This document shows, in pieces, positions 4,208 through 42,391 of a stretch of 43,663 bases of DNA. The stretch lies in the sequence record PZ445529.1. The stretch is one strand, 5' to 3'. A program made the translations under genes and the position numbers. Source of the stretch: a phage. A model generated the notes under the pieces. The model ran no database searches and had not been told where the DNA came from. It saw only the letters and a list, made by a program, of their open reading frames with translations. The stretch's first letter is position 1, and every line of letters begins with the position of its first letter.

Positions 4208-5637
4208 TGGCGATTAAACCAAAACGTAAAACGCAATCCGGTAGCAATACGGAACACTCATTACTCGGCCCGTCCGGTGCTAAAAAATGGATGGGTTGCC
4301 CTGCCGCCCTGGTGGTGGAAAAAGATATCCCGAACGAATCCGGGCAGGCGGCGATTAACGGTACGAGTATGCACACCGTATCTGAAGTCGTGCTAAACCG
4401 CATTATCGCCGGTGAAAAGCGGATAACAGCAAAGACGTATAAAGGATGTTACGTCGAGAATGAAGGCAAGGGGCCAGTAAAGGCGCACCCGAAAGCGCCG
4501 AAAGGCGGCGTACTGGTCAATGACGACATGGTGAAACAGTGCGATGCATACATCGACCACTGGCGCCCGCTCCTCGAAGTGGCGGAGTTTGTTCAGCTTG
4601 AGATGCGCGCCGATCTGACCCGCGTCCTTCATTCAGGCTTCGAGATCGACGGCAACAGGATTAAAACGTTCGGCACTGCCGATATGGTCATGGTCATGAA
4701 GAAGACCGACGGCACGTACATGCTGATTGTTGGCGACCTGAAGACGGGGCGGCATAAGGTCGAGGCGAAAGAAAACAAACAGCTTATGTTGTACGCGCTC
4801 GGCCTGCTGCGCAAGCTGCAATACATGTACGACATTACGACCGTGCGTCTGGTTATCTTCCAGCCATATTGTGGCGGGGCGTCGGAGTGGGATATTACAG
4901 TGGAAGCGCTGGAGATATTCGCGAAGTTTGCGTCCAAGCGTGCAATCGCCGCCCTGGAAGCGTACACCCGCGGCAAGAAGGGACTAACCCGCGCCGACTT
5001 CCGACCCAGCGTTGATGCGTGCCAGTGGTGCCGATTTGCGGACCAATGTAGTGCCCGGGCGAAGGCCGCAATCGACACGATGACACCACCAACGGCAACC
5101 GACGAAGACCTGGGCGACGACGTGAGTATCGCTACAGAGGAGGAATGCGCCAACCACGATCGCAATATGGCCCGCGAAGCCCGGAAGGCGGCACGACGTG
5201 CGAAGCGAGGCAAGAAAGAAGCGGCCCCCGGCGCTATGAGCGCGGCTGAACTGCGCAAGGCTTATGAAGGTCTGGACGCAATGCGCCAGCACATCAAAGC
5301 AATCGAGTCCGCGGTATTTAAGGCTGTGATGGCGGGTGATGGCGAATCGCTTGGCCTCAAGATGGTTGCCGGTAAGGAAGGGATCCGCAAGTGGGCGGAC
5401 GAGAGCGAAGTGATTGAAATCTTCACGAAGGCCCGGATCAAGCGCGATGTGATGTACAAAGAAACATTGCTCAGCCCTACTGATGCCGAGAAGGTACTGA
5501 AGGACGAGAAACCGAAAGTATGGGCGAAGCTGTGTGATAAAATCACGCGCGCACCGGCAAAACCGGTATTAGCACCAATCGACGATCCGCGCCCTGCGTG
5601 GTCGGAAGCTACTGACGAGGACTTAAGCAATGAATAA
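4207..5637 (+). CDS. PD-(D/E)xK exonuclease of the Cas4/RecB-like phage type (DUF2800-like)
   Basis: 476 aa; nuclease-core motifs GTADMVMV...IVGDLKTGRH; C-terminal Cys cluster CQWCRFADQC typical of Cas4-type nucleases; sits beside a putative SSB. Confidence 0.7.
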   Translation: MAIKPKRKTQSGSNTEHSLLGPSGAKKWMGCPAALVVEKDIPNESGQAAINGTSMHTVSEVVLNRIIAGEKRITAKTYKGCYVENEGKGPVKAHPKAPKGGVLVNDDMVKQCDAYIDHWRPLLEVAEFVQLEMRADLTRVLHSGFEIDGNRIKTFGTADMVMVMKKTDGTYMLIVGDLKTGRHKVEAKENKQLMLYALGLLRKLQYMYDITTVRLVIFQPYCGGASEWDITVEALEIFAKFASKRAIAALEAYTRGKKGLTRADFRPSVDACQWCRFADQCSARAKAAIDTMTPPTATDEDLGDDVSIATEEECANHDRNMAREARKAARRAKRGKKEAAPGAMSAAELRKAYEGLDAMRQHIKAIESAVFKAVMAGDGESLGLKMVAGKEGIRKWADESEVIEIFTKARIKRDVMYKETLLSPTDAEKVLKDEKPKVWAKLCDKITRAPAKPVLAPIDDPRPAWSEATDEDLSNE

Positions 5638-5872
5638 AGTATTCGCAATCTTATTGATGTTTTTGCTCGGCGCGCTGGGCTTTCTCCTGCATTGCGTGCA
5701 AGGCGTGTTAATGGTGGCCTGGATGATTCGCCATCCAACCCAATGGCTTGATGACGGCTATAGCGAAGCTGCCGTCGATTGGGTGGCGAAGAACATTAAC
5801 CGCCCGCCGTTAAGCTGGATCGAGAACGCGACCAACTACGTTACCAGAAATCTTTTTAATGAAAATGCTTGA
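5630..5872 (+). CDS. small membrane protein (80 aa, N-terminal transmembrane helix)
   Basis: Hydrophobic N-terminus ILLMFLLGALGFLLHCV; RBS GAGGA 9 nt upstream; ATG overlaps upstream gene end. Confidence 0.5.
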   Translation: MNKVFAILLMFLLGALGFLLHCVQGVLMVAWMIRHPTQWLDDGYSEAAVDWVAKNINRPPLSWIENATNYVTRNLFNENA

Positions 5873-6919: not shown

Positions 6920-9207
6920 AAGACTTCGAACGCCTGTTTCTCGATACCGAGACATTTAGCGGGGTGGACCTGAAGAAAGTAGGGGCGTACGCCTACGCAG
7001 AGCACCCAACCACCGAGATTATGATTTGCACATACGCCATCGACGAGGGTCGCGTGCAGACATGGGACGCCACTGAATCCCCCACAATGCCGCGTGAACT
7101 GCGCAAGGCGCTCCGCCGGGTAACCCGCAAGAAAGCAAAAATCGTGATGGCTAACGGCCTCCTGTTTGACCGCCTGGTTATCCGTGAGAAGTGGGGTATT
7201 GACCTGCCCGTAAGCCAGATCGAAGACACCATGATTATGGCCTTTCGCCACGCGCTGCCCGGTAGCCTCGATATGCAGTGCCAGGTGTTGGGCGTTGACG
7301 CAGAGCACGCGAAGGATAAGGCAGGCAAGGCGCTGATCAAACGATTCTGTAAGCCTACCCCTAAGACCTACAAAATACGCCGCTACACTCGCGAGACTCA
7401 CCCAGAAGAGTGGGCCAAGTTTCTGCGCTATGCCGCGCTGGATATTGTTGCCATGCGTGAAGTCTACTGGCGCATACCGGACTGGGGCAACTCACCGAAG
7501 GAAGATGAAATCCTGCTCATCGACCAGTTGATCAACGACCGCGGCTTCTATGTGGACGTTGACCTGGCGAACGCCGCGATCAAAGCGGTGCAGGCGCATA
7601 AGGAAGAATTGAAGGAAGAAGCCTGGGAGCGATTTGGCGGTAAACTGACAGGCAATGACTTTCTGCCAATCCTGCGTGATATCGCACCGGCGTTTACAAT
7701 CCACAACGCGCAGAAATCCACACTTAACGACCTGCTTGAAGACCCGGACTTCCCCGACGAAGGCAAAGCGCTTATCGAAATGCGCCTCGGAGCGTCATCA
7801 ACGGCATCGACTAAGTACAATCCGCTAGTTAATGGCCTGTCGGCCGATGGTCGCCGCCGTGGGTGTCTTCAGTATGGTGGTGCAAAGCGCACGCTGCGCT
7901 GGGCGGGTAAAGGCTTCCAGCCTCAAAACCTGGCACGCGGCGAGTATAGCGACGATCACGAAGGGAAGATTAAGCGCCGCGAAGGCGAGAGCGACGTCGC
8001 TTTCTGGGTCCGGTCGCATATGCTCACCAACGGCATAAACTCCCTGTTACGCGGGACCGCACACTGGGCGTATGACATATCTAAGCTGACCGCCTCGACC
8101 GTTCGCGGGTGCATCATTCCGGCGAAGGGCAAGAAGTTTGTCGTCGCGGACTACTCCAACGTGGAAGGGCGTGGCCTTGCCTGGATCGCGGGCGAGAAAA
8201 CCGCGCTAATGGTGTTTAAGGCCGGACGCGATATCTATTGCGAGACTGCCGGTAAGATGTTCGGCCTTGACCCGGATTACATTAAAGCCAACCGCAAGGA
8301 CTTACGCCAGATTGGTAAGGCGTGCGAATTGGGACTGGGCTATGGTGGCGGCGTCGCGGCGTTCTTGCAGTTCGCTAAAAACCTGGGCCTCGACCTTTAC
8401 ACTATGGCGGACGTGATGAAAGGCACGTTCCCGGATCACATTTGGGCGGCGGCGAAACGTGGTTATGAGTACGCCCGCATTAACGAAGCGAAGCGCCCGC
8501 CGAAGCCCGGTAAGAAAGACGAGCGCCCAACATACATACTGCCGAAAAACGTATGGCTTACCTGTGACGCGATCAAACGTATGTGGCGTGAGGCTCACCC
8601 GAAGACGGTAGCCTTTTGGGCCGAGCTTGAGGACGCGGTGTTGTGTGCAATCCGCAATCCGGGCAAAGCATACTGGGCTGGCGCGAACGTTCGCCCGGAC
8701 GGTAGGAAAGCGCTCAAGATTGTGCGCACGAAGGCGAAGCACGACCCAACCTTCGACGAGGAGCGCGACGACCCGAACGCCGCGGGGTGGTGGTTGAAAA
8801 TTGAGTTGCCGTCCGGGCGCATCATGAGCTACCCAGGCATCGCACTGTCGGTCACGACCGAGATCGACGAAGACACCGGCAAGAAGCGCACCAGTACCCG
8901 CATCAAATATCAGGGCGAGAATCAGACGACGCGCCAATGGGGGTTCCAGTACACCTACGGCGGCAAACTTACAGAGAACATCGTGCAAGCGTTGTGCCGC
9001 GATATTCTCGCGTGGTCCATGCCTGGCGTTGAAGCCGCGGGCTATGAGATCGTACTGTCAGTGCACGATGAATTGATAACCGAAGTGCCGGATACTGACG
9101 ACTACACGACCGAGGAGCTATGCGCGCTGATGTGCGACCTGCCTGTTTGGGCGAAAGGCTTCCCACTTGCCGCCGAAGGCGACATTATGATGCGCTACCG
9201 CAAATAA
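6916..9207 (+). CDS. family A DNA polymerase (Pol I-like) with 3'-5' exonuclease domain
   Basis: 763 aa; exo motif LDTETFSG; Pol A motif A ADYSNVEGRGLAW, motif B RQIGKACELGLGYGGG, motif C VHDELITEV. Confidence 0.9.
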   Translation: MKDFERLFLDTETFSGVDLKKVGAYAYAEHPTTEIMICTYAIDEGRVQTWDATESPTMPRELRKALRRVTRKKAKIVMANGLLFDRLVIREKWGIDLPVSQIEDTMIMAFRHALPGSLDMQCQVLGVDAEHAKDKAGKALIKRFCKPTPKTYKIRRYTRETHPEEWAKFLRYAALDIVAMREVYWRIPDWGNSPKEDEILLIDQLINDRGFYVDVDLANAAIKAVQAHKEELKEEAWERFGGKLTGNDFLPILRDIAPAFTIHNAQKSTLNDLLEDPDFPDEGKALIEMRLGASSTASTKYNPLVNGLSADGRRRGCLQYGGAKRTLRWAGKGFQPQNLARGEYSDDHEGKIKRREGESDVAFWVRSHMLTNGINSLLRGTAHWAYDISKLTASTVRGCIIPAKGKKFVVADYSNVEGRGLAWIAGEKTALMVFKAGRDIYCETAGKMFGLDPDYIKANRKDLRQIGKACELGLGYGGGVAAFLQFAKNLGLDLYTMADVMKGTFPDHIWAAAKRGYEYARINEAKRPPKPGKKDERPTYILPKNVWLTCDAIKRMWREAHPKTVAFWAELEDAVLCAIRNPGKAYWAGANVRPDGRKALKIVRTKAKHDPTFDEERDDPNAAGWWLKIELPSGRIMSYPGIALSVTTEIDEDTGKKRTSTRIKYQGENQTTRQWGFQYTYGGKLTENIVQALCRDILAWSMPGVEAAGYEIVLSVHDELITEVPDTDDYTTEELCALMCDLPVWAKGFPLAAEGDIMMRYRK

Positions 9208-17469: not shown

Positions 17470-17688
17470 ATGAAAACTTTAATTATGATTTGTGCGGTTC
17501 TTTTGTCCGGTTGTGCCAACATGCCCGCTAAAGTCTGCGACGCCACATACCAGAATAGCGGCATTGATTATGCGGTCCCTGTGTATGGTGTCGCAGACTT
17601 CTCCGGGCATAAAATGCTAAGGGCGGGTTATCCGTTTAGCTTCCAGTACGTGTCGGTAGACCATTTCAAAAACACCACCTGCGAATAA
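17470..17688 (+). CDS. small lipoprotein (73 aa) encoded antisense inside the tail gene block; candidate receptor-blocking/superinfection-exclusion protein
   Basis: Signal peptide with lipobox MKTLIMICAVLLSGC; RBS GGGGA; own promoter and terminator. Confidence 0.6.
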   Translation: MKTLIMICAVLLSGCANMPAKVCDATYQNSGIDYAVPVYGVADFSGHKMLRAGYPFSFQYVSVDHFKNTTCE

Positions 17689-33387: not shown

Positions 33388-33416
33388 TTGCAATCCTCAT
33401 ATTGGTTGCATATATT
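33388..33416 (+). promoter_or_regulatory. sigma70-like promoter (-35 TTGCAA, 17-bp spacer, -10 TATATT) with two ATTGGTTGCA copies
   Basis: cttgcaatcctcatattggttgcatatattggttgcacaccaaca; the 21-mer tatattggttgcacaccaaca recurs on the minus strand at 43413-43433. Confidence 0.55.
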
Positions 33417-33445: not shown

Positions 33446-34210
33446 ATGAGACTGACGAAAGACATTAAAAACCAGATTCTGGCTAACATCCTGCGCGACC
33501 ACGAAATCGCAACCGAAGCCAAACAAATCATGATGGACTCTCGCGATCTGGCGTACGCAATCACGCTGGACTGTATGCCGGACGGCATTCGCACATTCGC
33601 AGCGCTCCGCGAGCATATCAAGGAAATCCGCGACGACCAGTCGCAGATGTACGGCGTCAGCGTATACACCAACAAGGCGACGTATAGTTATAACTCCGAC
33701 CGCCCGAAGGGTATCGGCAGCGTCTATAACGCCACCTTTGAAATCAACGCAGGCGGCAATGTTCGCACCTTGTCATTGAGCGGTGACGGTCGCCAATACC
33801 GCGTACATCGCGGATACTGGGAAGAGAAATATATGAATAAGCTTGCGCCTGATCTCGGCGATATCGTTCCGGGGTTCGAGACAGTTATGCTCGCGTCGGT
33901 GTGTGAAGTGGACGAGGACGGGAATGCGCTGCCGATATATCTCCCTCGCGGTCGCGTAGATTACCCGGCAGACCATGACTTCTGTAAACGCTTGGACCGC
34001 AACGACAAGGCCCGTAGCGAGTTGCGCGCGAAGTATGATGCGTTCAAACTAACCGTTACCGGTGTTCTGGACCTGCACAATACTGACAAGAAGCTGATTA
34101 AGGCATGGCCTGAAGTTGAGCAATTCATCCCTTACCCGGACAAGCCGAAGTCCACGGCGGTGGCGCTGGATGTGAAAACTCTCAACGAGATTTGCGGTAT
34201 TCCGCGCTAA
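33446..34210 (+). CDS. hypothetical protein (254 aa) on a moron transcribed antisense to the structural operon
   Basis: ATG 33446 with RBS GAGGA 7 nt upstream; no signal peptide or TM segment seen; own promoter and terminator; no motif I recognise. Confidence 0.65.
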   Translation: MRLTKDIKNQILANILRDHEIATEAKQIMMDSRDLAYAITLDCMPDGIRTFAALREHIKEIRDDQSQMYGVSVYTNKATYSYNSDRPKGIGSVYNATFEINAGGNVRTLSLSGDGRQYRVHRGYWEEKYMNKLAPDLGDIVPGFETVMLASVCEVDEDGNALPIYLPRGRVDYPADHDFCKRLDRNDKARSELRAKYDAFKLTVTGVLDLHNTDKKLIKAWPEVEQFIPYPDKPKSTAVALDVKTLNEICGIPR

Positions 34211-34212
34211 CG

Positions 34213-34237
34213 AAAAAGGGGCCATTACGGCCCCTTA
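34213..34237. terminator. bidirectional terminator between the moron (+) and the Rz1-like gene (-)
   Basis: aggggcc-attac-ggcccct with A-run upstream and T-rich downstream. Confidence 0.65.
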
Positions 34238-34455
34238 ATTATTTGCTGCAACTCCAGGACCTGCGCCCTCAGCTTAGCACCGCACTCCATATTTTTAACA
34301 TCAACCAGCAAATCTTCGTCTGGATCTGCCGAGGCATTCTCAAAGGTGCAAGGTGGCCTATAGACCGACTCGGTTAGCGGCGTCGATGGCACGTTGCTTG
34401 ATCCGCACGCGCTCATCATCAAAACTGCAATCAGGACGGTTAGGACGCGTAACAT
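34225..34455 (-). CDS. o-spanin (Rz1-like outer-membrane lipoprotein) overlapping the Rz-like gene in another frame
   Basis: 76 aa; signal peptide with lipobox LIAVLMMSACGSS; Pro-rich; RBS AGAGG. Confidence 0.65.
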   Translation of the reverse strand: MLRVLTVLIAVLMMSACGSSNVPSTPLTESVYRPPCTFENASADPDEDLLVDVKNMECGAKLRAQVLELQQIIKGP

Positions 34456-34666
34456 ATTTTACAACCTCTTTCGTGATAGTCCGGTATTCCACATCGCGGG
34501 TCTGTTCTGCTTGCACCGCCCCCTCGACGACCTTAGTTTGCTGCCGTTGGGCTTTCGCTTGCGCTTCTTGCGCCGCTCTCGCCTCAACGCCTGCGCGGTA
34601 GGAATCCCCCTGCCAGAATCCAACCGCCAGGCCTATTACCAGCCCAATCGCTGCGTATTTAATCAC
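34358..34666 (-). CDS. i-spanin (Rz-like)
   Basis: 102 aa; N-terminal TM helix AAIGLVIGLAVGFW then charged coiled segment; GTG start with GGGGG RBS. Confidence 0.65.
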   Translation of the reverse strand: MIKYAAIGLVIGLAVGFWQGDSYRAGVEARAAQEAQAKAQRQQTKVVEGAVQAEQTRDVEYRTITKEVVKYVTRPNRPDCSFDDERVRIKQRAIDAANRVGL

Positions 34667-35762
34667 GCCATAACCCCCGGTTTTTAAGCTGTGCGATAGT
34701 CATCAGTTCGCCAGAATCGGTGAACATCTTCGGCACTCTCACGCCTCGCATAATCTGGTCTGCGCGCTGCACTCCATATAATTCCTCCAGAATATGGCGC
34801 GGCTGGCGCTGCACCCATGAGAAGAAATCAGTCTGCGCGTCGACCTGCTCACTCAGCAATCTGCCCGCTTCAGCCTTCAGTGCCGGACGCTTACCACTGG
34901 GCCAATCTTCCATGCCCTTAACTTTCCACGTCTCCGTCGAACGGCAGCAATAATGTAGCTTGCCCGGACCAGCGCCATATTGTGATCCAGCCACCACTTT
35001 CCCGCCGCGCTTTCCTTTGGTGTCGGGAGTGACGTCAACAGGATAAAACAGGCGATCGCGTAGCTGGCACATTGGGGAAGTATGAGTGTCCAATGTAGCC
35101 AACCATTGGCGACCTTCGAGAATATCGTCATTAGCTTTTACCATTAATTCGCGGGCGGTAGCCGCGTAGTGGTTGACCGCGGACTTAACAACGCTTGAGA
35201 TTGCTTGCGCACTACGACCGCCTAGCGCGCGCCTCACATCCGCAATAATTTCCATCGTTGGCTTGCCCTGGATGAATCCGGCGCGCACCTGATTACCGAT
35301 CTGCGTCCTGGTCCACTCGGAAAGTGAATCAGGCCACTGCATCATGGTGTTACCCTGGAACGGGTTTCTCATTGCAGTCGCTGCGATCTGCGCGCCAGTC
35401 ACTACACTCACCACCTCCACCGCGGGTATGGCGACCGCGGGCTGGATCGCTGCCGTTAGTGTGTCCGAGAGATAATCAGCCTCGGTGTCGGCGAACTCCT
35501 GAAGGCTCTCCGCCAGCACTTTAAACTCGGCGCGCAGTTCCGTTTTGACGGTCTTGTCGATTCGGGTTAACAGTGTGGTAAGTGCCTTGTTGCTCATGGA
35601 CTTTTTGCCATCAAGTAACTCGGTCAACTTACCCAGTAAAGCGGGCCGGAACTTCTCCCACATAGCCAGCACCCGTCGCGCCTGATCATTGCTCAGGCGC
35701 TGGGTGAAGATGTGACGGCGAATCATTCGATCCGCCATATATTGATTAATTGTCTTCGCCAT
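34659..35762 (-). CDS. head morphogenesis / minor head protein (Mu F / SPP1 gp7-like)
   Basis: 367 aa directly downstream of portal. Confidence 0.6.
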   Translation of the reverse strand: MAKTINQYMADRMIRRHIFTQRLSNDQARRVLAMWEKFRPALLGKLTELLDGKKSMSNKALTTLLTRIDKTVKTELRAEFKVLAESLQEFADTEADYLSDTLTAAIQPAVAIPAVEVVSVVTGAQIAATAMRNPFQGNTMMQWPDSLSEWTRTQIGNQVRAGFIQGKPTMEIIADVRRALGGRSAQAISSVVKSAVNHYAATARELMVKANDDILEGRQWLATLDTHTSPMCQLRDRLFYPVDVTPDTKGKRGGKVVAGSQYGAGPGKLHYCCRSTETWKVKGMEDWPSGKRPALKAEAGRLLSEQVDAQTDFFSWVQRQPRHILEELYGVQRADQIMRGVRVPKMFTDSGELMTIAQLKNRGLWRD

Positions 35763-37266
35763 TGTCCGCTACCTTGTCCGGGTCTTCTTCGGTGGATTCT
35801 ACCGCATCAGGGGACATTTGAGGCAATGGATTCTGATTTCGCAGTTCGTCTTCCACCTGCTCGACGGTTTGCGAGTCATCAATGACGCCCTGGGCCATCA
35901 TCCACTTGATAAAGTCCGCCAGCCGGACCGTACCGGTCTGCACACCCGCCATCATTGCGGTCATAAGCTGTGCGTCAACCGTGATTTCGGTGTAGAACTT
36001 ATTCAGCGTTACGCGTTGATCTGCGGTGTCGCCCGTGAACAGCTTGACGATTTGCAGCGCACGGTTGAAAGCCTTCTCGACGTTACCGGCAATCAGTGAC
36101 AGGATACTGTTATCAGTCTGCGCATCGTAGGCCGCTTCGGTTGCCGTCTTAGGTGCGGTCCCCTTCTCGACCAGGGCCGCGCCAAGTTTAGCCATTTGCA
36201 GCTCTCGGCGTTCACACAGTGCGACCGATAGGTTTCGTTCTTCGGCCTGAAGCAGTTTGGCGTCCATGTTCTGACCCAGGATAACGCCCTTAGTCGCACC
36301 GAGCGCGATGCCGCCTTTCAGGTTTTTGTCCGCCCATGATTGAGTCAAGCCCGTCGCAACCAGGGTTGGTTGGCCCACTATGTGCGCAATCTCGGCGACG
36401 TCCGCTTCGGCGTTGTAGTGCTTAATGTTGATGGACGCAATATCAGCCAGCGGCGCGGCGTCCGGCGTTGCGTTGTTGTCCACCGCACCACACCAGCAAA
36501 ACGGGAGTTGTGTCAGCGCCTTACCGGCTGCATCCACCAGCGGCACAAGATCGGTACGGGTAAACCCCCGCGGCAAGTCCATTTGCACCTCGGACGTGTC
36601 CGCATTATAAAACCAGCGGCGGGCGTGTGCCGCACCGTTAATCATGCGAAGCTCGGTCCAGATTGTTACTTCGTGGTTTGCGAAGTCGTCCGGGTCTTCG
36701 GTGCTGATTTCGTCCGTTTCCTTCAGAACAATCAGCGTATCGACGCCGTGGGTCTGCCGCCAGTTGATGATCTGTTCTGCCGTATATAGGCGGATAAGCG
36801 GGCGGTGTGACGCCATCTCGGCGGCTGTCTGCGGCACTACGTTACCCAGTTCGTCAAAATGCGCCTGGCGGTCGTAGTCAACCATAAAGCCTGCGCGGCC
36901 AGATTGCAGAACTTCAGACATAGCACCGCGCAGGAGTTGCGGCAGCGGCATTCCGCTGCCGTCTACGTCGTCAATCAGGTCAGCCATCGCCCCGGAAAGG
37001 TCGAGACTTACCGGTTTAGCAAAGGCAACTCCTAACAGCGCGTTAAGTGTGCGGGCGGTGGCGTTCAGGAATACAGCGCGTTGCTTGTACGCCTTATACC
37101 GCGCCCGTGCTTTCGGGTCAGTATTGTCGCCACTGGCGGGATGAGGCAGGTACAAGGGGCCGCACGCCTTCACGGCGCGCTCCCCTGCCACACAATCGCG
37201 GATCATCTTCCACTCGGGCGCGATGCGCGCATAAAGTGGGTGCTGGTTGTCAACGTTAACGGTCAT
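35746..37266 (-). CDS. portal protein
   Basis: 506 aa directly downstream of terminase large subunit. Confidence 0.7.
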   Translation of the reverse strand: MTVNVDNQHPLYARIAPEWKMIRDCVAGERAVKACGPLYLPHPASGDNTDPKARARYKAYKQRAVFLNATARTLNALLGVAFAKPVSLDLSGAMADLIDDVDGSGMPLPQLLRGAMSEVLQSGRAGFMVDYDRQAHFDELGNVVPQTAAEMASHRPLIRLYTAEQIINWRQTHGVDTLIVLKETDEISTEDPDDFANHEVTIWTELRMINGAAHARRWFYNADTSEVQMDLPRGFTRTDLVPLVDAAGKALTQLPFCWCGAVDNNATPDAAPLADIASINIKHYNAEADVAEIAHIVGQPTLVATGLTQSWADKNLKGGIALGATKGVILGQNMDAKLLQAEERNLSVALCERRELQMAKLGAALVEKGTAPKTATEAAYDAQTDNSILSLIAGNVEKAFNRALQIVKLFTGDTADQRVTLNKFYTEITVDAQLMTAMMAGVQTGTVRLADFIKWMMAQGVIDDSQTVEQVEDELRNQNPLPQMSPDAVESTEEDPDKVADNGEDN

Positions 37267-37276
37267 GGTCGTTTCC

Positions 37277-38662
37277 TTAGTAGAAGTCTACAGTTGGAAC
37301 AACGGCGATAGGGCGAATCACCGGGAACAGGTGCGCGATTGGATAGCCTGCGGCATCGTTCATGTGGTCCACACCGGCGGTTTTATCCGGCTCGCCTTTC
37401 TTCAGGTCGTAAACCTGCTGTTCCAGACATTTCGCTAGTGTAGGGCATTTATCCAGGTTGACAAAATACTGGCGCACGCCCTTCGAGTTGCACATCATCG
37501 TATTCATCGCGATCAATCGGTCTTTCACAGGCGGGTTAACGCTGTCGTACTCCACCTCGAAGCCCGCGTCTTCCAGTTGTGCGATATCTGACGACGATGC
37601 GTTGACAGTCTTGCGGGACTTGCCGCTGCTATCCGGGTAAACGACAACCCGACCGGCAGCACAATGATCGGGGTAGCGCGCCTCGATCGCCTCAATCATA
37701 GCCGGGGTGTCAAACAGGTCCACAAATTCATCCACCGCGTGAATCTCGTCGCGGAACTCCTTGTTCTCGGTGACTCGCTGCCGTCTGACGTACACAACCG
37801 CCGCCATCTTCGTGACGTTAAAGTCCATACCGATAATCAGCGTGTCGTCCGGCTGCACTTCTTCGGTGCTGGCGTTCTCCTCGCGATTAAACATCTTGTA
37901 CACCGCGCCCGACGTAAGGTTAACAAACAGGCCGTTCAGGTACGCATCAATCAGGTTAGCTGGGTACTGACTGCGGAGCGTGTCGATAAAGTCCGCCGGT
38001 AAATGGGGGTTGTCCGTGGTCTTCGCCCGGATCAGGCGTTTCTGGTTGTCTTTCTCCACCTCGAAAATTTGGTACATCGCCCGGTAGCCTTCAGGCGTCG
38101 ATACGATGACGAACTGGCGGACGAAGCCAGCACGCAGACGACCGAGCAATTTGTGATACGCCGCCAGCGCGACGTCTTGTTTCGTGGTGTCGAACTCGTC
38201 GGCAACAATCCACGCGGCGTTGACCCCGATCAGGCGGGTATAGTTCTCCATTGATTCACAGATCACGCGGGTCCATTTGCCTTTTACCAGCACGTTGTAG
38301 ATCTTATCCTGCTTATTGAATTTCCACCGGAATCCAGCCTCGTCGAATGCCTTCTCCAGTTCCGGATACATGATTTTAACCAGGAGGGGAATCGTCGGTT
38401 CTGTAACGATGCCGTCATGACCGGGGTTCAGGGTTAAAAGCTGGATGACCTTACGCGCAGCGACCCACGACTTTCCACCGCCGAAGCCGGAACACAGGCC
38501 GAGGATTTTAGTCTTTGTGTCGCGCAGTAGTTCAACCTGGTGCGGCAAGCAATCAGGCTGGTAAAGGCGGACGGCCTGCGCAACGCGTGTCGGGCGTGGC
38601 GGTCGGTTGCGCTTTGCGATCGCGCGTTCCAGTGCGCGGTGTTCTGCCGCATAGTTACGCAT
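37277..38662 (-). CDS. terminase large subunit
   Basis: 461 aa; P-loop-like LGLCSGFGGGKS, acidic IVADEFD; start overlaps small-subunit stop (TAATG). Confidence 0.8.
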   Translation of the reverse strand: MRNYAAEHRALERAIAKRNRPPRPTRVAQAVRLYQPDCLPHQVELLRDTKTKILGLCSGFGGGKSWVAARKVIQLLTLNPGHDGIVTEPTIPLLVKIMYPELEKAFDEAGFRWKFNKQDKIYNVLVKGKWTRVICESMENYTRLIGVNAAWIVADEFDTTKQDVALAAYHKLLGRLRAGFVRQFVIVSTPEGYRAMYQIFEVEKDNQKRLIRAKTTDNPHLPADFIDTLRSQYPANLIDAYLNGLFVNLTSGAVYKMFNREENASTEEVQPDDTLIIGMDFNVTKMAAVVYVRRQRVTENKEFRDEIHAVDEFVDLFDTPAMIEAIEARYPDHCAAGRVVVYPDSSGKSRKTVNASSSDIAQLEDAGFEVEYDSVNPPVKDRLIAMNTMMCNSKGVRQYFVNLDKCPTLAKCLEQQVYDLKKGEPDKTAGVDHMNDAAGYPIAHLFPVIRPIAVVPTVDFY

Positions 38663-39234
38663 TATTCACCCTGGCCTTTGCCGGAAGGTTCCACTACGAC
38701 GTCGCCGTTATCATCTTCGTCGTCATCCAGCGGCACATCGTCGCGGACGCCGTGGTTTGCTTTAAGCAGGAATGTTGCGAAGCCCGCCGCGATGGTCACG
38801 CCGCCAGCTTCCATCAGGAAGGTTTTTTGTAACTCCATTGCGTCCGCCATCGCCTCAGCGAACTCCTCATGCGCACGCGCCCAGCGATACAGGCAAGCTA
38901 CGCCCACGCCGATTTCCGCGGCAAATCGACCGAAGGTTGGCATTTTGTTGCGGGGGATTACTTGCGCAGCGCCTTTAGCGGAGTAGTTGACCTGCCAGGC
39001 GTCGGCGTCGGCGAAATAGCGACGAAGCTGGTCGCAGTAAACGGATCGGTAGTCAGTAGGGCGTCCACATTTGCCGCCTTTACGACGCTTTCCGTACTCG
39101 ATCTCCGGTCCGAGATTAGTATGCTCGGTTTGCTCGCCTGGTTTACGGCGCGGGGTTACCGCCACTCGTCCGTCCAGTTTGGCGCGTCGGCCCTTAACTT
39201 TGATTTCTGCCATGATATAAGCCCTTTTGTTCAT
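38662..39234 (-). CDS. terminase small subunit
   Basis: HTH-like FGRFAAEIGVGVACLYRWARAHEEF; start uncertain (ATG 39234 or 39213; longer GTG-initiated ORF to 39312 seems unlikely). Confidence 0.6.
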   Translation of the reverse strand: MNKRAYIMAEIKVKGRRAKLDGRVAVTPRRKPGEQTEHTNLGPEIEYGKRRKGGKCGRPTDYRSVYCDQLRRYFADADAWQVNYSAKGAAQVIPRNKMPTFGRFAAEIGVGVACLYRWARAHEEFAEAMADAMELQKTFLMEAGGVTIAAGFATFLLKANHGVRDDVPLDDDEDDNGDVVVEPSGKGQGE

Positions 39235-39343
39235 ATGCGCCGACCATCGGCAACATAGGAGACGGCCCTGCCATCTAACGGGGATTATAACAGGCACAAA
39301 AAAGCCCACCAAATCGGCAGGCTGGGAGGGGTACGGGTTGCCG

Positions 39344-40690: not shown

Positions 40691-40718
40691 AATAAAAAGC
40701 CCGGAATTAACCGGGCTT
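40691..40718 (-). terminator. Rho-independent terminator after the Ig-like gene
   Basis: aagcccgg-ttaatt-ccgggctt followed by TTTTTATT on the minus strand. Confidence 0.7.
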
Positions 40719-40724
40719 GTGGTT

Positions 40725-41138
40725 TTATTCTTCTGCTCCCGTTACGGTGAAGATGGCGGACGCCATCGCCCCGCCTCCATCAGATGCCACCCAAAAGATG
40801 TGAGCGCTACCTGCCGTTTGGGGTGTGATTTTGCCGGTAGTCTGATCGATTTCCGCACAGGCAGGATTCGACGACACCCACTTCCCTGCCTTGTTAGTTG
40901 CGTCGGATGGCTGTACCGCAACCGAAGCGGCGGCCTTTGCACCAACTGCGGCGGATTTCGGTGTGATAGTTACGGTGGCACTTGTCACCGGCTTACTTTC
41001 CGGCGGGCTGGGTAACTTCGCGTCGAATACCCCCGCATGGCTGATCGTATCCGCTACAATAGCGCGTGCGCCTGGGTCTTCGGTTTTAGCCAGCGCGGCG
41101 AGCGCGTCGGCGTTATGATCAAGAATACTTTTTAACAT
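40725..41138 (-). CDS. bacterial Ig-like (Big_2-type) domain protein, 137 aa
   Basis: VTITPKSAAVGAKAAASVAVQPSDATNKAGKWVSSNP...TAGSAHIFWVASDGG resembles Big_2 domains; downstream of endolysin. Confidence 0.55.
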   Translation of the reverse strand: MLKSILDHNADALAALAKTEDPGARAIVADTISHAGVFDAKLPSPPESKPVTSATVTITPKSAAVGAKAAASVAVQPSDATNKAGKWVSSNPACAEIDQTTGKITPQTAGSAHIFWVASDGGGAMASAIFTVTGAEE

Positions 41139-41154: not shown

Positions 41155-41646
41155 TTATGCTGCGTTACGTCCGATCTTCTCGGCAACGTCCCACTGCTTA
41201 CCATCGAATAGCGCCTGCCTGCCGATTGCTCGACGGACTAACCCCTTCAGCACTTCCCCACCTTGCTTGCGGAATTGTGGCAGTATAGCCCGCACCTTTG
41301 CCCAGTCGCCCCGGCGGATCGCATCGTCGAAATCACCGGCTACGTCGTCCGGCATGATCGGACCAGGACCGGCATTGATTACCAGGTCCACCAGCGCGTC
41401 GAATTGCGCCTGATTGATGCTCGGGTGTGCGTACTTGTTCACCCAGTTCTCGGCATATGCCACATCGCGCTTGAGTAGCTCCAGTGCTTCCGCACGGGTA
41501 ATGCTTCGTGGCGGAGTAGTGCCAGTGTGCCCATAACCCCAGGTGTACAGGCCGCGGGCCTGCTCTTTCTTGGTCGCGAAATACGGCACCGGGCTGAAAG
41601 CCTCCCATGCTGCCGTAAATCGTAGACCGTTATCACTGAATCGCAT
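41155..41646 (-). CDS. endolysin (T4-lysozyme-like muramidase)
   Basis: 163 aa; N-terminal EAFSPVPY and TWGYGHT motifs. Confidence 0.75.
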   Translation of the reverse strand: MRFSDNGLRFTAAWEAFSPVPYFATKKEQARGLYTWGYGHTGTTPPRSITRAEALELLKRDVAYAENWVNKYAHPSINQAQFDALVDLVINAGPGPIMPDDVAGDFDDAIRRGDWAKVRAILPQFRKQGGEVLKGLVRRAIGRQALFDGKQWDVAEKIGRNAA

Positions 41647-41878
41647 GTTTTACCCCATTCAAAACAGCATTACGCAGCGTGCGCAATGCAAACAGCCAGA
41701 TTAACGCGGTCCAGGTGGTATCTGATACGTCTCCCGTTTGCAACAGCCCGACAATACAGGTCATTGCTGTTAGCAGATATAACACCCGACCGAAGAAGCC
41801 ATCCTGAACGGACGGCGCATACACGTTAAACAGGGACGAAGCCCCTATGATAACAAACAACAGGACGGAGATAATCAT
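41633..41878 (-). CDS. second membrane protein of the lysis cassette (holin/antiholin-like)
   Basis: 81 aa MIISVLLFVIIGASSLF...; ATG overlaps holin stop (ATGA). Confidence 0.5.
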   Translation of the reverse strand: MIISVLLFVIIGASSLFNVYAPSVQDGFFGRVLYLLTAMTCIVGLLQTGDVSDTTWTALIWLFALRTLRNAVLNGVKHAIQ

Positions 41879-42165
41879 TTTGCGCCCCCCGGAAGGTGTA
41901 GCGTCGCAATTGTCTCCCGGATCCGGTCGGCGATTGGCATCCAGAAGATGGCAGTTACGAAGCCCAAACCGGCGACAGTGCGCTCGCCAGACAAACCAGA
42001 CCACTCGGCAATAGCTGGCGCACCAAATATGGCACACAGGAAGCCAACTACGACATATAAAACGAAGTTCAACGGCCCTTTCGTTGCCTCGCCGTGAATG
42101 CGTGCGCCCACGAAGCCACCAGCAAGACACGCAAGGGCGAATAACCACTCGTTTAGCTTATCCAT
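41875..42165 (-). CDS. holin (three predicted TM segments, charged C-terminus)
   Basis: 96 aa; hydrophobic segments WLFALACLAGGFVGA, FVLYVVVGFLCAIFGAPAIA, VAGLGFVTAIFWMPI; immediately upstream of endolysin. Confidence 0.6.
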   Translation of the reverse strand: MDKLNEWLFALACLAGGFVGARIHGEATKGPLNFVLYVVVGFLCAIFGAPAIAEWSGLSGERTVAGLGFVTAIFWMPIADRIRETIATLHLPGGAK

Positions 42166-42200
42166 AAAAAAGTCCCAGTAAGTTTTAGCTCACTGGGACT
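42166..42200 (-). terminator. intrinsic terminator (9-bp stem, 12-nt loop, TTTTTT) abutting the holin start codon
   Basis: Minus strand agtcccagt-gagctaaaactt-actgggact-tttttt-ATG. Confidence 0.6.
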
Positions 42201-42217
42201 ATATCACGCTTGCGTAA

Positions 42218-42391
42218 TTAATCGAAAATGGACCACTTACCGACGCCTTTCCATTCCCACCCTTCCGATCGGACGGCCTCGAACATCCTGCCCCCTATCA
42301 TATCCCGATACCATAGCCACCACATGCGCAACCTGGTAGGGTGCTCCGTGATACCACGGCGCTTGTATACCTCGAACGTCATGCGGGCCAT
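42218..42391 (-). CDS. hypothetical small protein (57 aa)
   Basis: ATG-initiated ORF overlapping upstream ORF end; no clear RBS. Confidence 0.3.
   Translation of the reverse strand: MARMTFEVYKRRGITEHPTRLRMWWLWYRDMIGGRMFEAVRSEGWEWKGVGKWSIFD

What the first reader, a model, noticed from the sequence alone, without database searches (positions are those of the whole stretch)
34225..34666. Rz/Rz1-type spanin pair lies inside the head gene block, about 7 kb from holin and endolysin
An i-spanin-like gene (N-terminal TM helix plus charged coiled segment) contains an out-of-frame o-spanin-like lipoprotein gene (lipobox MMSAC, Pro-rich). The pair sits between the head morphogenesis gene and the moron, separated from holin/endolysin (41155-42165) by terminase and portal genes. 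Spanins are usually in or beside the lysis cassette; here they share an insertion hot-spot with the antisense moron.
Basis: partly seen in the sequence, partly recalled or inferred. Interest (0 to 1): 0.4.

Follow-up and report, generated by a model that had tools for sequence, protein, structure and literature searches.

The report
Known overlapping spanin pair, Dhillonvirus phage
This is the ordinary two-gene "spanin" system that a Dhillonvirus (HK578-like) coliphage uses to break the host outer membrane, and its position in the head-gene block, far from holin and endolysin, is the published norm for this phage group.

Summary
The two ORFs are real and lie at the stated coordinates on the minus strand. 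The i-spanin is 34358-34666 (102 aa, N-terminal membrane helix). The o-spanin is 34225-34455 (76 aa, lipobox LMMSA|C). They overlap by 98 nt, and the o-spanin runs 133 nt past the i-spanin stop, so the architecture is "overlapped" (P2-like), not embedded (lambda-like). Both match PHROG Rz-like spanin families (E 1e-35 and 3e-25). Each single-coding part is under purifying selection in its own frame (pN/pS 0.12 and 0.11). The window is a Dhillonvirus genome about 93% identical to SECphi18. GenBank records such as Oekolampad already annotate these genes as i-/o-spanin. Kongari et al. 2018 placed HK578 and EP23 in the "Jersey" overlapped spanin family. Jersey, K1ind1 and FSL SP-031 show the same layout: holin-holin-endolysin ahead of terminase, and spanins after the head-morphogenesis gene, 6.5-9 kb away. 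That separation is stated in print for phage Schulenberg. The slot next to the pair, between the o-spanin and the scaffold gene, does vary in its antisense cargo (Nmad5 and others), but the spanins themselves are fixed. Verdict: correct identification, already known, low interest.

The parts
34358..34666 (-). i-spanin gene (102 aa, GTG start): short cytoplasmic N-terminus, one transmembrane helix at about residues 4-18, then a charged and mostly helical periplasmic domain with Cys80.
   Evidence: ORF. Hydropathy and composition. phrog_2536 'Rz-like spanin' E=9.9e-36. GTG start and sequence conserved in 13 relatives. pN/pS 0.12. Low-confidence AF2 model with helices 5-72 and 82-99. Annotated 'i-spanin' in Oekolampad.
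34225..34455 (-). o-spanin gene (76 aa, ATG start): signal peptide with lipobox LMMSA|C17, Gly at +2 (outer-membrane sorting), 60-aa mature lipoprotein with conserved Cys36 and Cys58.
   Evidence: ORF. phrog_5672 E=2.6e-25 and phrog_1267 E=8e-12. Lipobox and Cys conserved in Dhillonvirus, Jersey, K1ind1, FSL SP-031, P400 and VLCpiS13d. o-only part pN/pS 0.11 with third-position periodicity in the o frame. Annotated 'o-spanin' in Oekolampad.
34358..34455 (-). 98-nt dual-coding overlap: the i-spanin C-terminal 32 codons and the o-spanin signal peptide plus first mature residues, in the +1 frame.
   Evidence: Coordinates. In the i frame, synonymous divergence falls to 0.186 from 0.323 in the i-only part (pN/pS 0.26). 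The o frame (signal peptide) gives 0.92.
34465..34470 (-). Shine-Dalgarno-like AAGAGG, 9 nt upstream of the o-spanin ATG, inside the i-spanin gene.
   Evidence: Read from the sequence.
34674..34678 (-). GGGGG Shine-Dalgarno-like run, 7 nt upstream of the i-spanin GTG. The GTG (34664-34666) overlaps the end of the head-morphogenesis gene (..CGTGATTAA), which suggests translational coupling.
   Evidence: Read from the sequence.
34216..34236 (.). GC-rich hairpin between the convergent o-spanin and Nmad5 genes. On the minus strand it is followed by UUUUUCGUU, so it is terminator-like. The o-spanin stop codon lies in its loop.
   Evidence: Terminator scan. RNA fold -23 kcal/mol, z=-2.4.
34659..35762 (-). 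Context: head-morphogenesis (SPP1 gp7 / Mu F-like) gene directly upstream, overlapping the i-spanin start by 8 nt.
   Evidence: phrog_241 E=2.7e-115. ORF.
33446..34210 (+). A promoter-like site lies at 33388-33416.
   Evidence: PF18757 Nmad5 E=2e-61. Promoter-like site. Presence, absence or replacement among relatives.
41155..42165 (-). Context: lysis cassette of holin (41875-42165), second holin or antiholin (41633-41878) and lysozyme-type endolysin (41155-41646). It is 6,488 nt from the i-spanin start.
   Evidence: phrog_2359, phrog_2508, phrog_7 and PF00959. Homologous to the K1ind1 and Jersey cassettes.

Best explanation
The locus encodes a two-component spanin of the 'Jersey' family (EP23/HK578 subfamily) in the overlapped gene arrangement, in a Dhillonvirus siphophage. 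Inferred mechanism, from the established spanin model (Summer 2007; Berry/Rajaure/Young; summarised in PMC6139136): the i-spanin is anchored in the inner membrane by its N-terminal helix, and its helical periplasmic domain binds the o-spanin. The o-spanin is lipidated at Cys17 and sorted to the outer membrane. The complexes span the periplasm and are probably disulfide-linked through the conserved Cys residues. They accumulate during late gene expression but are held in check by the intact peptidoglycan mesh. When the holins release the endolysin and the wall is degraded, the complexes fuse the inner and outer membranes, which completes lysis. Because activation depends on wall degradation and not on co-transcription, the genes need not sit next to holin and endolysin. 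Here they form the distal end of the terminase-portal-head-morphogenesis gene string. The i-spanin start overlaps the head-morphogenesis stop, the o-spanin has its own internal Shine-Dalgarno site, and a hairpin terminator follows. Shown here: the ORFs, the targeting signals, dual-frame selection, family homology and conserved synteny. Inferred: membrane topology, complex formation, fusion activity and the transcription unit.
For: ORFs and signals. PHROG spanin families at E 1e-35 and 3e-25. Purifying selection in each gene's own frame, with the codon-position periodicity switching exactly at the i-spanin stop. Intact ORFs, lipobox and Cys residues in 13 Dhillonvirus loci and in Jersey and K1ind1. 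Existing i-/o-spanin annotation in Oekolampad, GeorgBuechner, Gluttony and EP23. Kongari et al. list HK578, EP23, JL1, SSL-2009a and SO-1 in the Jersey overlapped i- and o-spanin families and describe the shorter EP23-SO-1 subfamily with two helices and a linker. This agrees with the AF2 helices 5-72 and 82-99. Homologous pairs sit inside complete holin/endolysin/spanin cassettes in Yersinia phage P400 and Klebsiella phage VLCpiS13d. No other spanin candidate exists in the window, because the only other lipoprotein is Cor.
Against: I found no experimental test of any member of this spanin family in the searchable literature, so function rests on architecture and family assignment. There is no Pfam or NCBIfam hit. 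The periplasmic domains are short: about 82 aa in the i-spanin and 60 aa in the mature o-spanin. The structure model is low confidence (pLDDT 62, single sequence). In the overlap, the o frame shows no purifying-selection signal (pN/pS 0.92). This is expected for a signal peptide, but it is not positive evidence.
Confidence: 0.9

Rival explanations
1. The lipoprotein is a superinfection-exclusion or receptor-blocking lipoprotein (Cor/Llp-like), and the upstream membrane protein is unrelated. The pair only mimics spanin architecture.
For: Small phage lipoproteins with this role exist in related siphophages, and no member of this family has been tested experimentally.
Against: The window already has a bona fide Cor at 17470-17688 (NF047972, 55.7 bits against a cut-off of 31). 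The pair is conserved as an overlapping i/o unit across about 640 phage records. It sits inside full holin-endolysin-spanin cassettes in P400 and VLCpiS13d. No Cor model matches it.
Confidence: 0.04
2. Only the i-spanin-like ORF is a gene. The overlapping lipoprotein ORF is an untranslated chance ORF.
For: In the 98-nt overlap the o frame has pN/pS 0.92. Several GenBank records do not annotate it, or truncate it.
Against: The 133 nt beyond the i-spanin stop evolve with pN/pS 0.11 and third-position variability in the o frame only. An AAGAGG Shine-Dalgarno site lies 9 nt upstream of the ATG. Lipobox, Cys36 and Cys58 are conserved down to 36-40% identical homologues. Missing o-spanin annotation is a known gene-caller bias (PMC6139136).
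Confidence: 0.02
3. Given their place in the head operon, the two small proteins act in head assembly or DNA packaging, not in lysis.
For: They lie between the head-morphogenesis and scaffold genes and overlap the former.
Against: Both carry envelope-targeting signals, a transmembrane helix and a lipobox, which would be incompatible with a cytoplasmic assembly role. Their family assignment is to lysis. Homologues occur in lysis cassettes.
Confidence: 0.02

Closest known systems
'Jersey' two-component spanin family, EP23-SO-1 subfamily (Kongari et al. 2018, PMC6139136): spanins of HK578, EP23, JL1, SSL-2009a and SO-1 (Dhillonvirus)
   Same: Same genes. i-spanin identity is 86-97% and o-spanin identity 79-100% to Dhillonvirus records. 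Same overlapped architecture, same short two-helix i-spanin, same conserved Cys residues, and same position after the head-morphogenesis gene.
   Different: Nothing of substance. This isolate differs by a few substitutions; its o-spanin is 100% identical to that of Shigella phage 1b.
Spanins of Guernseyvirinae (Salmonella phage Jersey, E. coli phages K1ind1 and Schulenberg, Cornellvirus FSL SP-031)
   Same: Homologous i- and o-spanins at 36-42% identity. Same split layout, with holin-holin-endolysin ahead of terminase and the spanins between head-morphogenesis and scaffold. The separation is stated explicitly for Schulenberg.
   Different: The i-spanins are longer (about 128 aa). A Hoc-like gene and other small genes lie between head-morphogenesis and the spanins. 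FSL SP-031 has the nearly separated arrangement (8-nt overlap). None has an Nmad5 gene downstream.
Phage P2 LysB/LysC (prototype of the overlapped spanin architecture)
   Same: The o-spanin starts inside the i-spanin gene in another frame and extends past its stop. The predicted function is the same.
   Different: No sequence relationship was tested or expected. In P2 the pair sits in the lysis cassette (PMC6139136, Fig. 1b legend).
Phage lambda Rz/Rz1
   Same: Same functional class: a type II inner-membrane protein plus an outer-membrane lipoprotein encoded in a different frame of the same DNA.
   Different: Lambda Rz1 is fully embedded and lies in the S-R-Rz cassette. No similarity to a Pfam family was detected here. 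Here the i-spanin is shorter and the o-spanin longer and less Pro-rich; the lambda values are from my own knowledge.
Phage T4 PseT.3/PseT.2
   Same: A precedent for spanin genes located away from holin and endolysin (PMC6139136, Fig. 8 legend).
   Different: In T4 the two spanin genes are separated (non-overlapping), and all the lysis genes are scattered. The families are unrelated.

Membership tests
Two-component spanin (functional class; Summer 2007, Kongari 2018) | i-spanin is a small type II inner-membrane protein with a single N-terminal transmembrane domain | tested here: met
   Residues about 4-18 (YAAIGLVIGLAVGFW) give a Kyte-Doolittle 15-residue mean of 2.05, and the rest of the protein is hydrophilic. 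The feature is conserved in 13 relatives.
Two-component spanin (functional class; Summer 2007, Kongari 2018) | The i-spanin periplasmic domain is predominantly alpha-helical or coiled and charged | tested here: inconclusive
   The AF2 single-sequence model shows helices 5-72 and 82-99 but has a mean pLDDT of only 62. Charged residues make up 29%. This agrees with the published secondary-structure description for the EP23-SO-1 subfamily.
Two-component spanin (functional class; Summer 2007, Kongari 2018) | o-spanin is a small lipoprotein with an SPase II signal (lipobox) and no inner-membrane retention signal (no Asp at +2) | tested here: met
   MLRVLTVLIAVLMMSA|CGSS: the lipobox is present, with Gly at +2 and Ser at +3. 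The lipobox is conserved in all homologues examined.
Two-component spanin (functional class; Summer 2007, Kongari 2018) | The two genes are adjacent in an embedded, overlapped or separated arrangement, with the i-spanin first | tested here: met
   Overlapped: the o-spanin starts 211 nt into the i-spanin gene in the +1 frame, with a 98-nt overlap and a 133-nt extension.
Two-component spanin (functional class; Summer 2007, Kongari 2018) | At least one periplasmic Cys is available for homotypic intermolecular disulfide bonds | tested here: met
   i-spanin Cys80 and o-spanin Cys36 and Cys58 are all conserved. Whether disulfides actually form cannot be tested here.
Two-component spanin (functional class; Summer 2007, Kongari 2018) | Required for outer-membrane disruption; complements lambda Rz/Rz1 defects | not testable with these tools
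   This needs genetics. I found no published test of this family.
'Jersey' spanin sequence family (Kongari 2018) / PHROGs 2536 and 5672 | Significant sequence similarity of both proteins to family members | tested here: met
   phrog_2536 E=9.9e-36 and phrog_5672 E=2.6e-25. tblastn gives 36-42% identity to the Jersey, K1ind1 and FSL SP-031 spanins. HK578 and EP23 are listed as members. A 44,077-bp locus, the length of the EP23 record, is 87% and 82% identical.
Lambda Rz / Rz1 sequence families (Pfam) | A match to the Pfam models for lambda-type Rz or Rz1 | tested here: not met
   Neither protein has a Pfam family at E<=0.1, and neither has a relevant NCBIfam hit.
Embedded (lambda-like) spanin gene architecture | The o-spanin reading frame lies entirely within the i-spanin gene | tested here: not met
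   The o-spanin ends at 34225, 133 nt beyond the i-spanin stop at 34358.
Cor-type phage exclusion lipoprotein | A match to the Cor model NF047972 | tested here: not met
   The o-spanin has no Cor hit. A different ORF (17470-17688) matches Cor above the curated cut-off.

The most novel reading that the evidence does not exclude
The slot just downstream of the head-morphogenesis gene may be the ancestral seat of the whole lysis cassette in this broad group of siphophages. Yersinia phage P400 and Klebsiella phage VLCpiS13d still have holin, endolysin and a homologous spanin pair there. On this reading, the Dhillonvirus/Guernseyvirinae lineage split the cassette by moving holin and endolysin ahead of terminase and left the spanins behind. 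The close linkage of the spanins to a head gene, and the neighbouring antisense moron slot, would then be remnants of that non-structural island and not a new insertion.
Probability: 0.25. Interest if true: 0.2.

Novelty: already known. Interest (0 to 1): 0.08.

Why it matters
It matters little beyond correct annotation. The case shows that spanin genes need not sit beside holin and endolysin, because they are activated by wall degradation and not by co-transcription. It also shows that gene callers often miss or truncate the overlapping o-spanin. Several Dhillonvirus GenBank records still label these genes 'hypothetical' or annotate only one of them. For engineering these phages, or for therapeutic use, it is useful to know that the outer-membrane lysis function lies in the head operon. 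Deletions or payload insertions in the variable Nmad5 slot must spare 34225-34666 and its terminator.

Tried and rejected
(1) Pfam and NCBIfam scans of both proteins gave no family, so they cannot be tied to lambda Rz/Rz1 by sequence; only PHROGs recognises them. (2) Rfam at gathering threshold on the whole window found nothing, so no structured RNA explains the locus. (3) The sigma-70 promoter scan found no more sites than shuffled sequence (10 against 9.1 expected) and none on the minus strand just upstream of terS or the spanins. The transcription unit therefore could not be defined. Terminator-like hairpins at 40718-40697 and 39323-39303 suggest, but do not prove, that the spanins are not on the holin-endolysin transcript. 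(4) Single-sequence AF2 of the i-spanin gave only a low-confidence all-helical model. I ran no fold search on it because matches would be meaningless. (5) I considered a Cor/Llp-like exclusion function for the lipoprotein and rejected it once the true Cor gene was found elsewhere. (6) I considered that the spanins were themselves mobile cargo of the hot-spot. I rejected this because their position is invariant across Dhillonvirus and Guernseyvirinae while only the downstream slot varies. (7) Literature searches for an experimental test of this spanin family found none. (8) I did not use the large protein-database searches, since the phage collections already answered the question.

Full report
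**1. What is in the sequence**

Two ORFs lie on the minus strand at exactly the coordinates given.

- The first is 34358-34666: GTG start, 102 aa, sequence MIKYAAIGLVIGLAVGFWQGDSYRAGVEARAAQEAQAKAQRQQTKVVEGAVQAEQTRDVEYRTITKEVVKYVTRPNRPDCSFDDERVRIKQRAIDAANRVGL.
- The second is 34225-34455: ATG start, 76 aa, sequence MLRVLTVLIAVLMMSACGSSNVPSTPLTESVYRPPCTFENASADPDEDLLVDVKNMECGAKLRAQVLELQQIIKGP.

The first protein has a hydrophobic N-terminus (Kyte-Doolittle 15-residue mean 2.05), and the rest is hydrophilic, with 29% charged residues and one Cys at position 80. The second has a signal peptide ending in the lipobox L-M-M-S-A-C17, Gly at +2, and two further Cys at positions 36 and 58.

The second gene begins 211 nt into the first, in the +1 frame. 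It shares 98 nt with it and continues 133 nt past its stop. The arrangement is therefore "overlapped" (as in P2 lysB/lysC), not "embedded" (as in lambda Rz/Rz1).

- An AAGAGG Shine-Dalgarno motif lies 9 nt upstream of the o-spanin ATG.
- A GGGGG run lies 7 nt upstream of the i-spanin GTG.
- The GTG overlaps the stop of the upstream head-morphogenesis gene (..CGTGATTAA), giving an 8-nt gene overlap.
- The o-spanin stop codon sits in the loop of a GC-rich hairpin at 34216-34236. On the minus strand the hairpin is followed by UUUUUCGUU.

**2. Is it more than chance?**

- A six-frame scan of the whole window for signal-peptide-plus-lipobox ORFs returns three candidates. They are this ORF, an ORF at 17470-17688 that matches the Cor exclusion lipoprotein above NCBI's curated cut-off, and one spurious antisense ORF inside a large gene.
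- In 13 other Dhillonvirus loci, both ORFs are intact, the GTG start is conserved, and the lipobox and all Cys residues are conserved.
- Pairwise Nei-Gojobori counts give pN/pS 0.12 for the i-only part in the i frame and 0.11 for the o-only part in the o frame. The wrong frames give 1.3 and 8.4.
- The most variable codon position switches frame exactly at the i-spanin stop.
- In the overlap, the i frame retains constraint (pN/pS 0.26) with lower synonymous divergence (0.186 against 0.323). The o frame, which there encodes the signal peptide, gives 0.92.

The lipoprotein reading frame is therefore a real, selected gene.

**3. What it is**

Both proteins match PHROG families annotated as Rz-like spanins: phrog_2536 at E=9.9e-36, and phrog_5672 at E=2.6e-25 with phrog_1267 at 8e-12. 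Neither has a Pfam or relevant NCBIfam hit. They are therefore not sequence relatives of lambda Rz/Rz1 at detectable level.

The window as a whole is a Dhillonvirus (HK578-like) siphophage genome, about 93% identical to Escherichia phage SECphi18 over 24.7 kb. The 2.4-kb region around the finding is 94% identical to phage Oekolampad. That GenBank record annotates the same two ORFs as "i-spanin" and "o-spanin", with the same 309-nt and 231-nt lengths and the same overlap. GeorgBuechner, Gluttony, EP23 and others carry equivalent annotation.

Kongari et al. 2018 (PMC6139136) list HK578, EP23, JL1, SSL-2009a, SO-1 and EK99P-1 in the "Jersey" family of overlapped two-component spanins. They describe an "EP23 to SO-1" subfamily of shorter i-spanins with two helices joined by a linker, and conserved o-spanin Cys residues. 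A single-sequence AlphaFold2 model of the i-spanin is low confidence (pLDDT 62) but shows that layout, with helices 5-72 and 82-99 separated by the TRPNRPDCS segment.

**4. The genomic position**

- Upstream, on the minus strand, are terS, terL (37277-38662), portal (35746-37266) and head-morphogenesis (34659-35762; phrog_241, E=3e-115).
- Downstream is an antisense gene at 33446-34210. It is an Nmad5 (nucleotide-modification-associated domain 5) protein (PF18757, E=2e-61).
- Scaffold and major capsid genes follow.
- The endolysin (41155-41646; PF00959) and two holins (41633-41878 and 41875-42165; phrog_2508 and phrog_2359) lie 6,488 nt from the i-spanin start.
- Between them also lie an Ig-domain ORF and an exonuclease-like gene, each followed by a terminator-like hairpin (40718-40697 and 39323-39303).

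This layout is not peculiar to this genome. All 14 Dhillonvirus sequences compared have portal, head-morphogenesis, i-spanin and o-spanin at identical spacing.

The same split is found in the Guernseyvirinae:

- In Salmonella phage Jersey the spanins are at 7501-7996 and holin/lysin at 41182-42221 of 43,447 bp.
- In E. coli phage K1ind1 the spanins are at 4661-5156 and holin-holin-endolysin at 38202-39238 of 42,292 bp.
- In FSL SP-031 the spanins also lie between head-morphogenesis and scaffold.

The holins, endolysin and spanins of Jersey and K1ind1 are homologous to those of the window (25-51%, 49% and 36-42% identity), while the portal is only about 29% identical. The arrangement is therefore old.

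About 640-680 phage records carry homologues of the two proteins. [quoted passage not shown] T4 is the textbook precedent for unlinked spanins (PMC6139136).

**5. The "insertion hot-spot"**

The interval between the o-spanin stop and the scaffold start is indeed variable among Dhillonviruses, ranging from about 630 to 1520 nt.

- Nmad5 is present in 10 of the 13 relatives and absent in 3.
- A 172-aa antisense gene replaces or accompanies it. This gene is annotated "DNA polymerase III beta subunit" in EP23 and is 36% identical to a gene of Yersinia phage P400.
- A roughly 105-aa antisense ORF also occurs there.

FSL SP-031 likewise has antisense genes on either side of its spanins.

The spanin pair itself never changes position and abuts the head-morphogenesis gene. 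It borders the hot-spot and is not part of its cargo.

In two more distant phages, Yersinia vB_YenS_P400 and Klebsiella VLCpiS13d, a homologous overlapped spanin pair sits in a complete lysis cassette with holin and endolysin. That cassette lies a short distance downstream of portal and head-morphogenesis. This hints that the post-head-morphogenesis site may once have held the whole cassette. That is speculation. The portal and head-morphogenesis proteins of those phages were not detectably similar to the window's by tblastn.

**6. How it most likely works**

By inference from the established spanin model, the i-spanin is an N-in, C-out inner-membrane protein. The o-spanin is lipidated at Cys17 and sorted to the outer membrane, because it has Gly and not Asp at +2. 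The two bind across the periplasm, probably as disulfide-linked homodimers through the conserved Cys residues. The peptidoglycan mesh restrains them until holin-triggered endolysin action removes it. They then fuse the two membranes and complete lysis.

Because activation is post-translational, late expression from the head operon is sufficient and linkage to holin and endolysin is unnecessary. The ORFs, signals, selection, homology and synteny are shown here. Topology, complex formation, fusion activity and the transcript structure are inferred. I found no experimental test of this particular family.

**7. Rivals**

- A Cor/Llp-type exclusion lipoprotein is unlikely. A true Cor is encoded elsewhere in the window, and homologues of this pair occur in complete lysis cassettes.
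- A chance, untranslated ORF is excluded by the selection analysis.
- A head-assembly role conflicts with the envelope-targeting signals.

**8. Verdict**

The identification as a spanin pair is sound. The supposedly unusual placement is the conserved, annotated and published state of Dhillonvirus and Guernseyvirinae. Novelty: already known. Interest: low.

Noticed in passing
window 17470-17688 (+): A 72-aa lipoprotein (MKTLIMICAVLLSGC...) matches the phage exclusion lipoprotein Cor (NF047972, E=3.7e-15, 55.7 bits against a cut-off of 31). It lies next to the tail-fibre/receptor-binding region and is probably a superinfection-exclusion gene.
   Followed up: partly
window 33446-34210 (+); L005, L010, L012 and L013 at about 4240-5750: The antisense 'moron' is an Nmad5 (nucleotide-modification-associated domain 5) protein. 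It has a promoter-like site at 33388-33416 and shares the hairpin terminator with the spanins. In other Dhillonviruses the slot lacks Nmad5 or also carries a 172-aa 'DNA pol III beta-like' gene and a roughly 105-aa ORF, all antisense to the late genes. The function of these genes in a virulent siphophage is unknown.
   Followed up: partly
window 40725-41138 (-): The ORF just downstream of the endolysin is 137 aa. Its first 42 residues are 98% identical to a 53-aa hypothetical protein of phage Gluttony (phrog_11068). It then continues into a Big_2 Ig-like domain (PF02368, E=1.6e-10) that Gluttony lacks, so an Ig-domain extension appears to have been gained next to the lysis cassette.
   Followed up: partly
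window 40697-40718 and 39303-39323 (- strand): Terminator-like hairpins with U-runs follow the Ig-domain ORF and the exonuclease-like gene. They lie between the lysis cassette and terS, which suggests that holin/endolysin and the terminase-to-spanin genes are on different transcripts. No matching sigma-70-like promoter was found upstream of terS.
   Followed up: no
L018 (Yersinia phage vB_YenS_P400) 4541-4780; L019 (Klebsiella phage VLCpiS13d) 4592-4837: Both records contain an overlapped o-spanin ORF with a lipobox (…LMMSGC… and …AISGC…). It is unannotated in VLCpiS13d and truncated to 47 aa in P400. In both, the whole lysis cassette lies a short distance downstream of portal and head-morphogenesis.
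   Followed up: partly
phage collection hits: Many Dhillonvirus GenBank records label these two genes 'hypothetical protein', annotate only one of them, or truncate the o-spanin. RefSeq Gluttony gp39, for example, is 159 nt where the full ORF is 231 nt.
   Followed up: no
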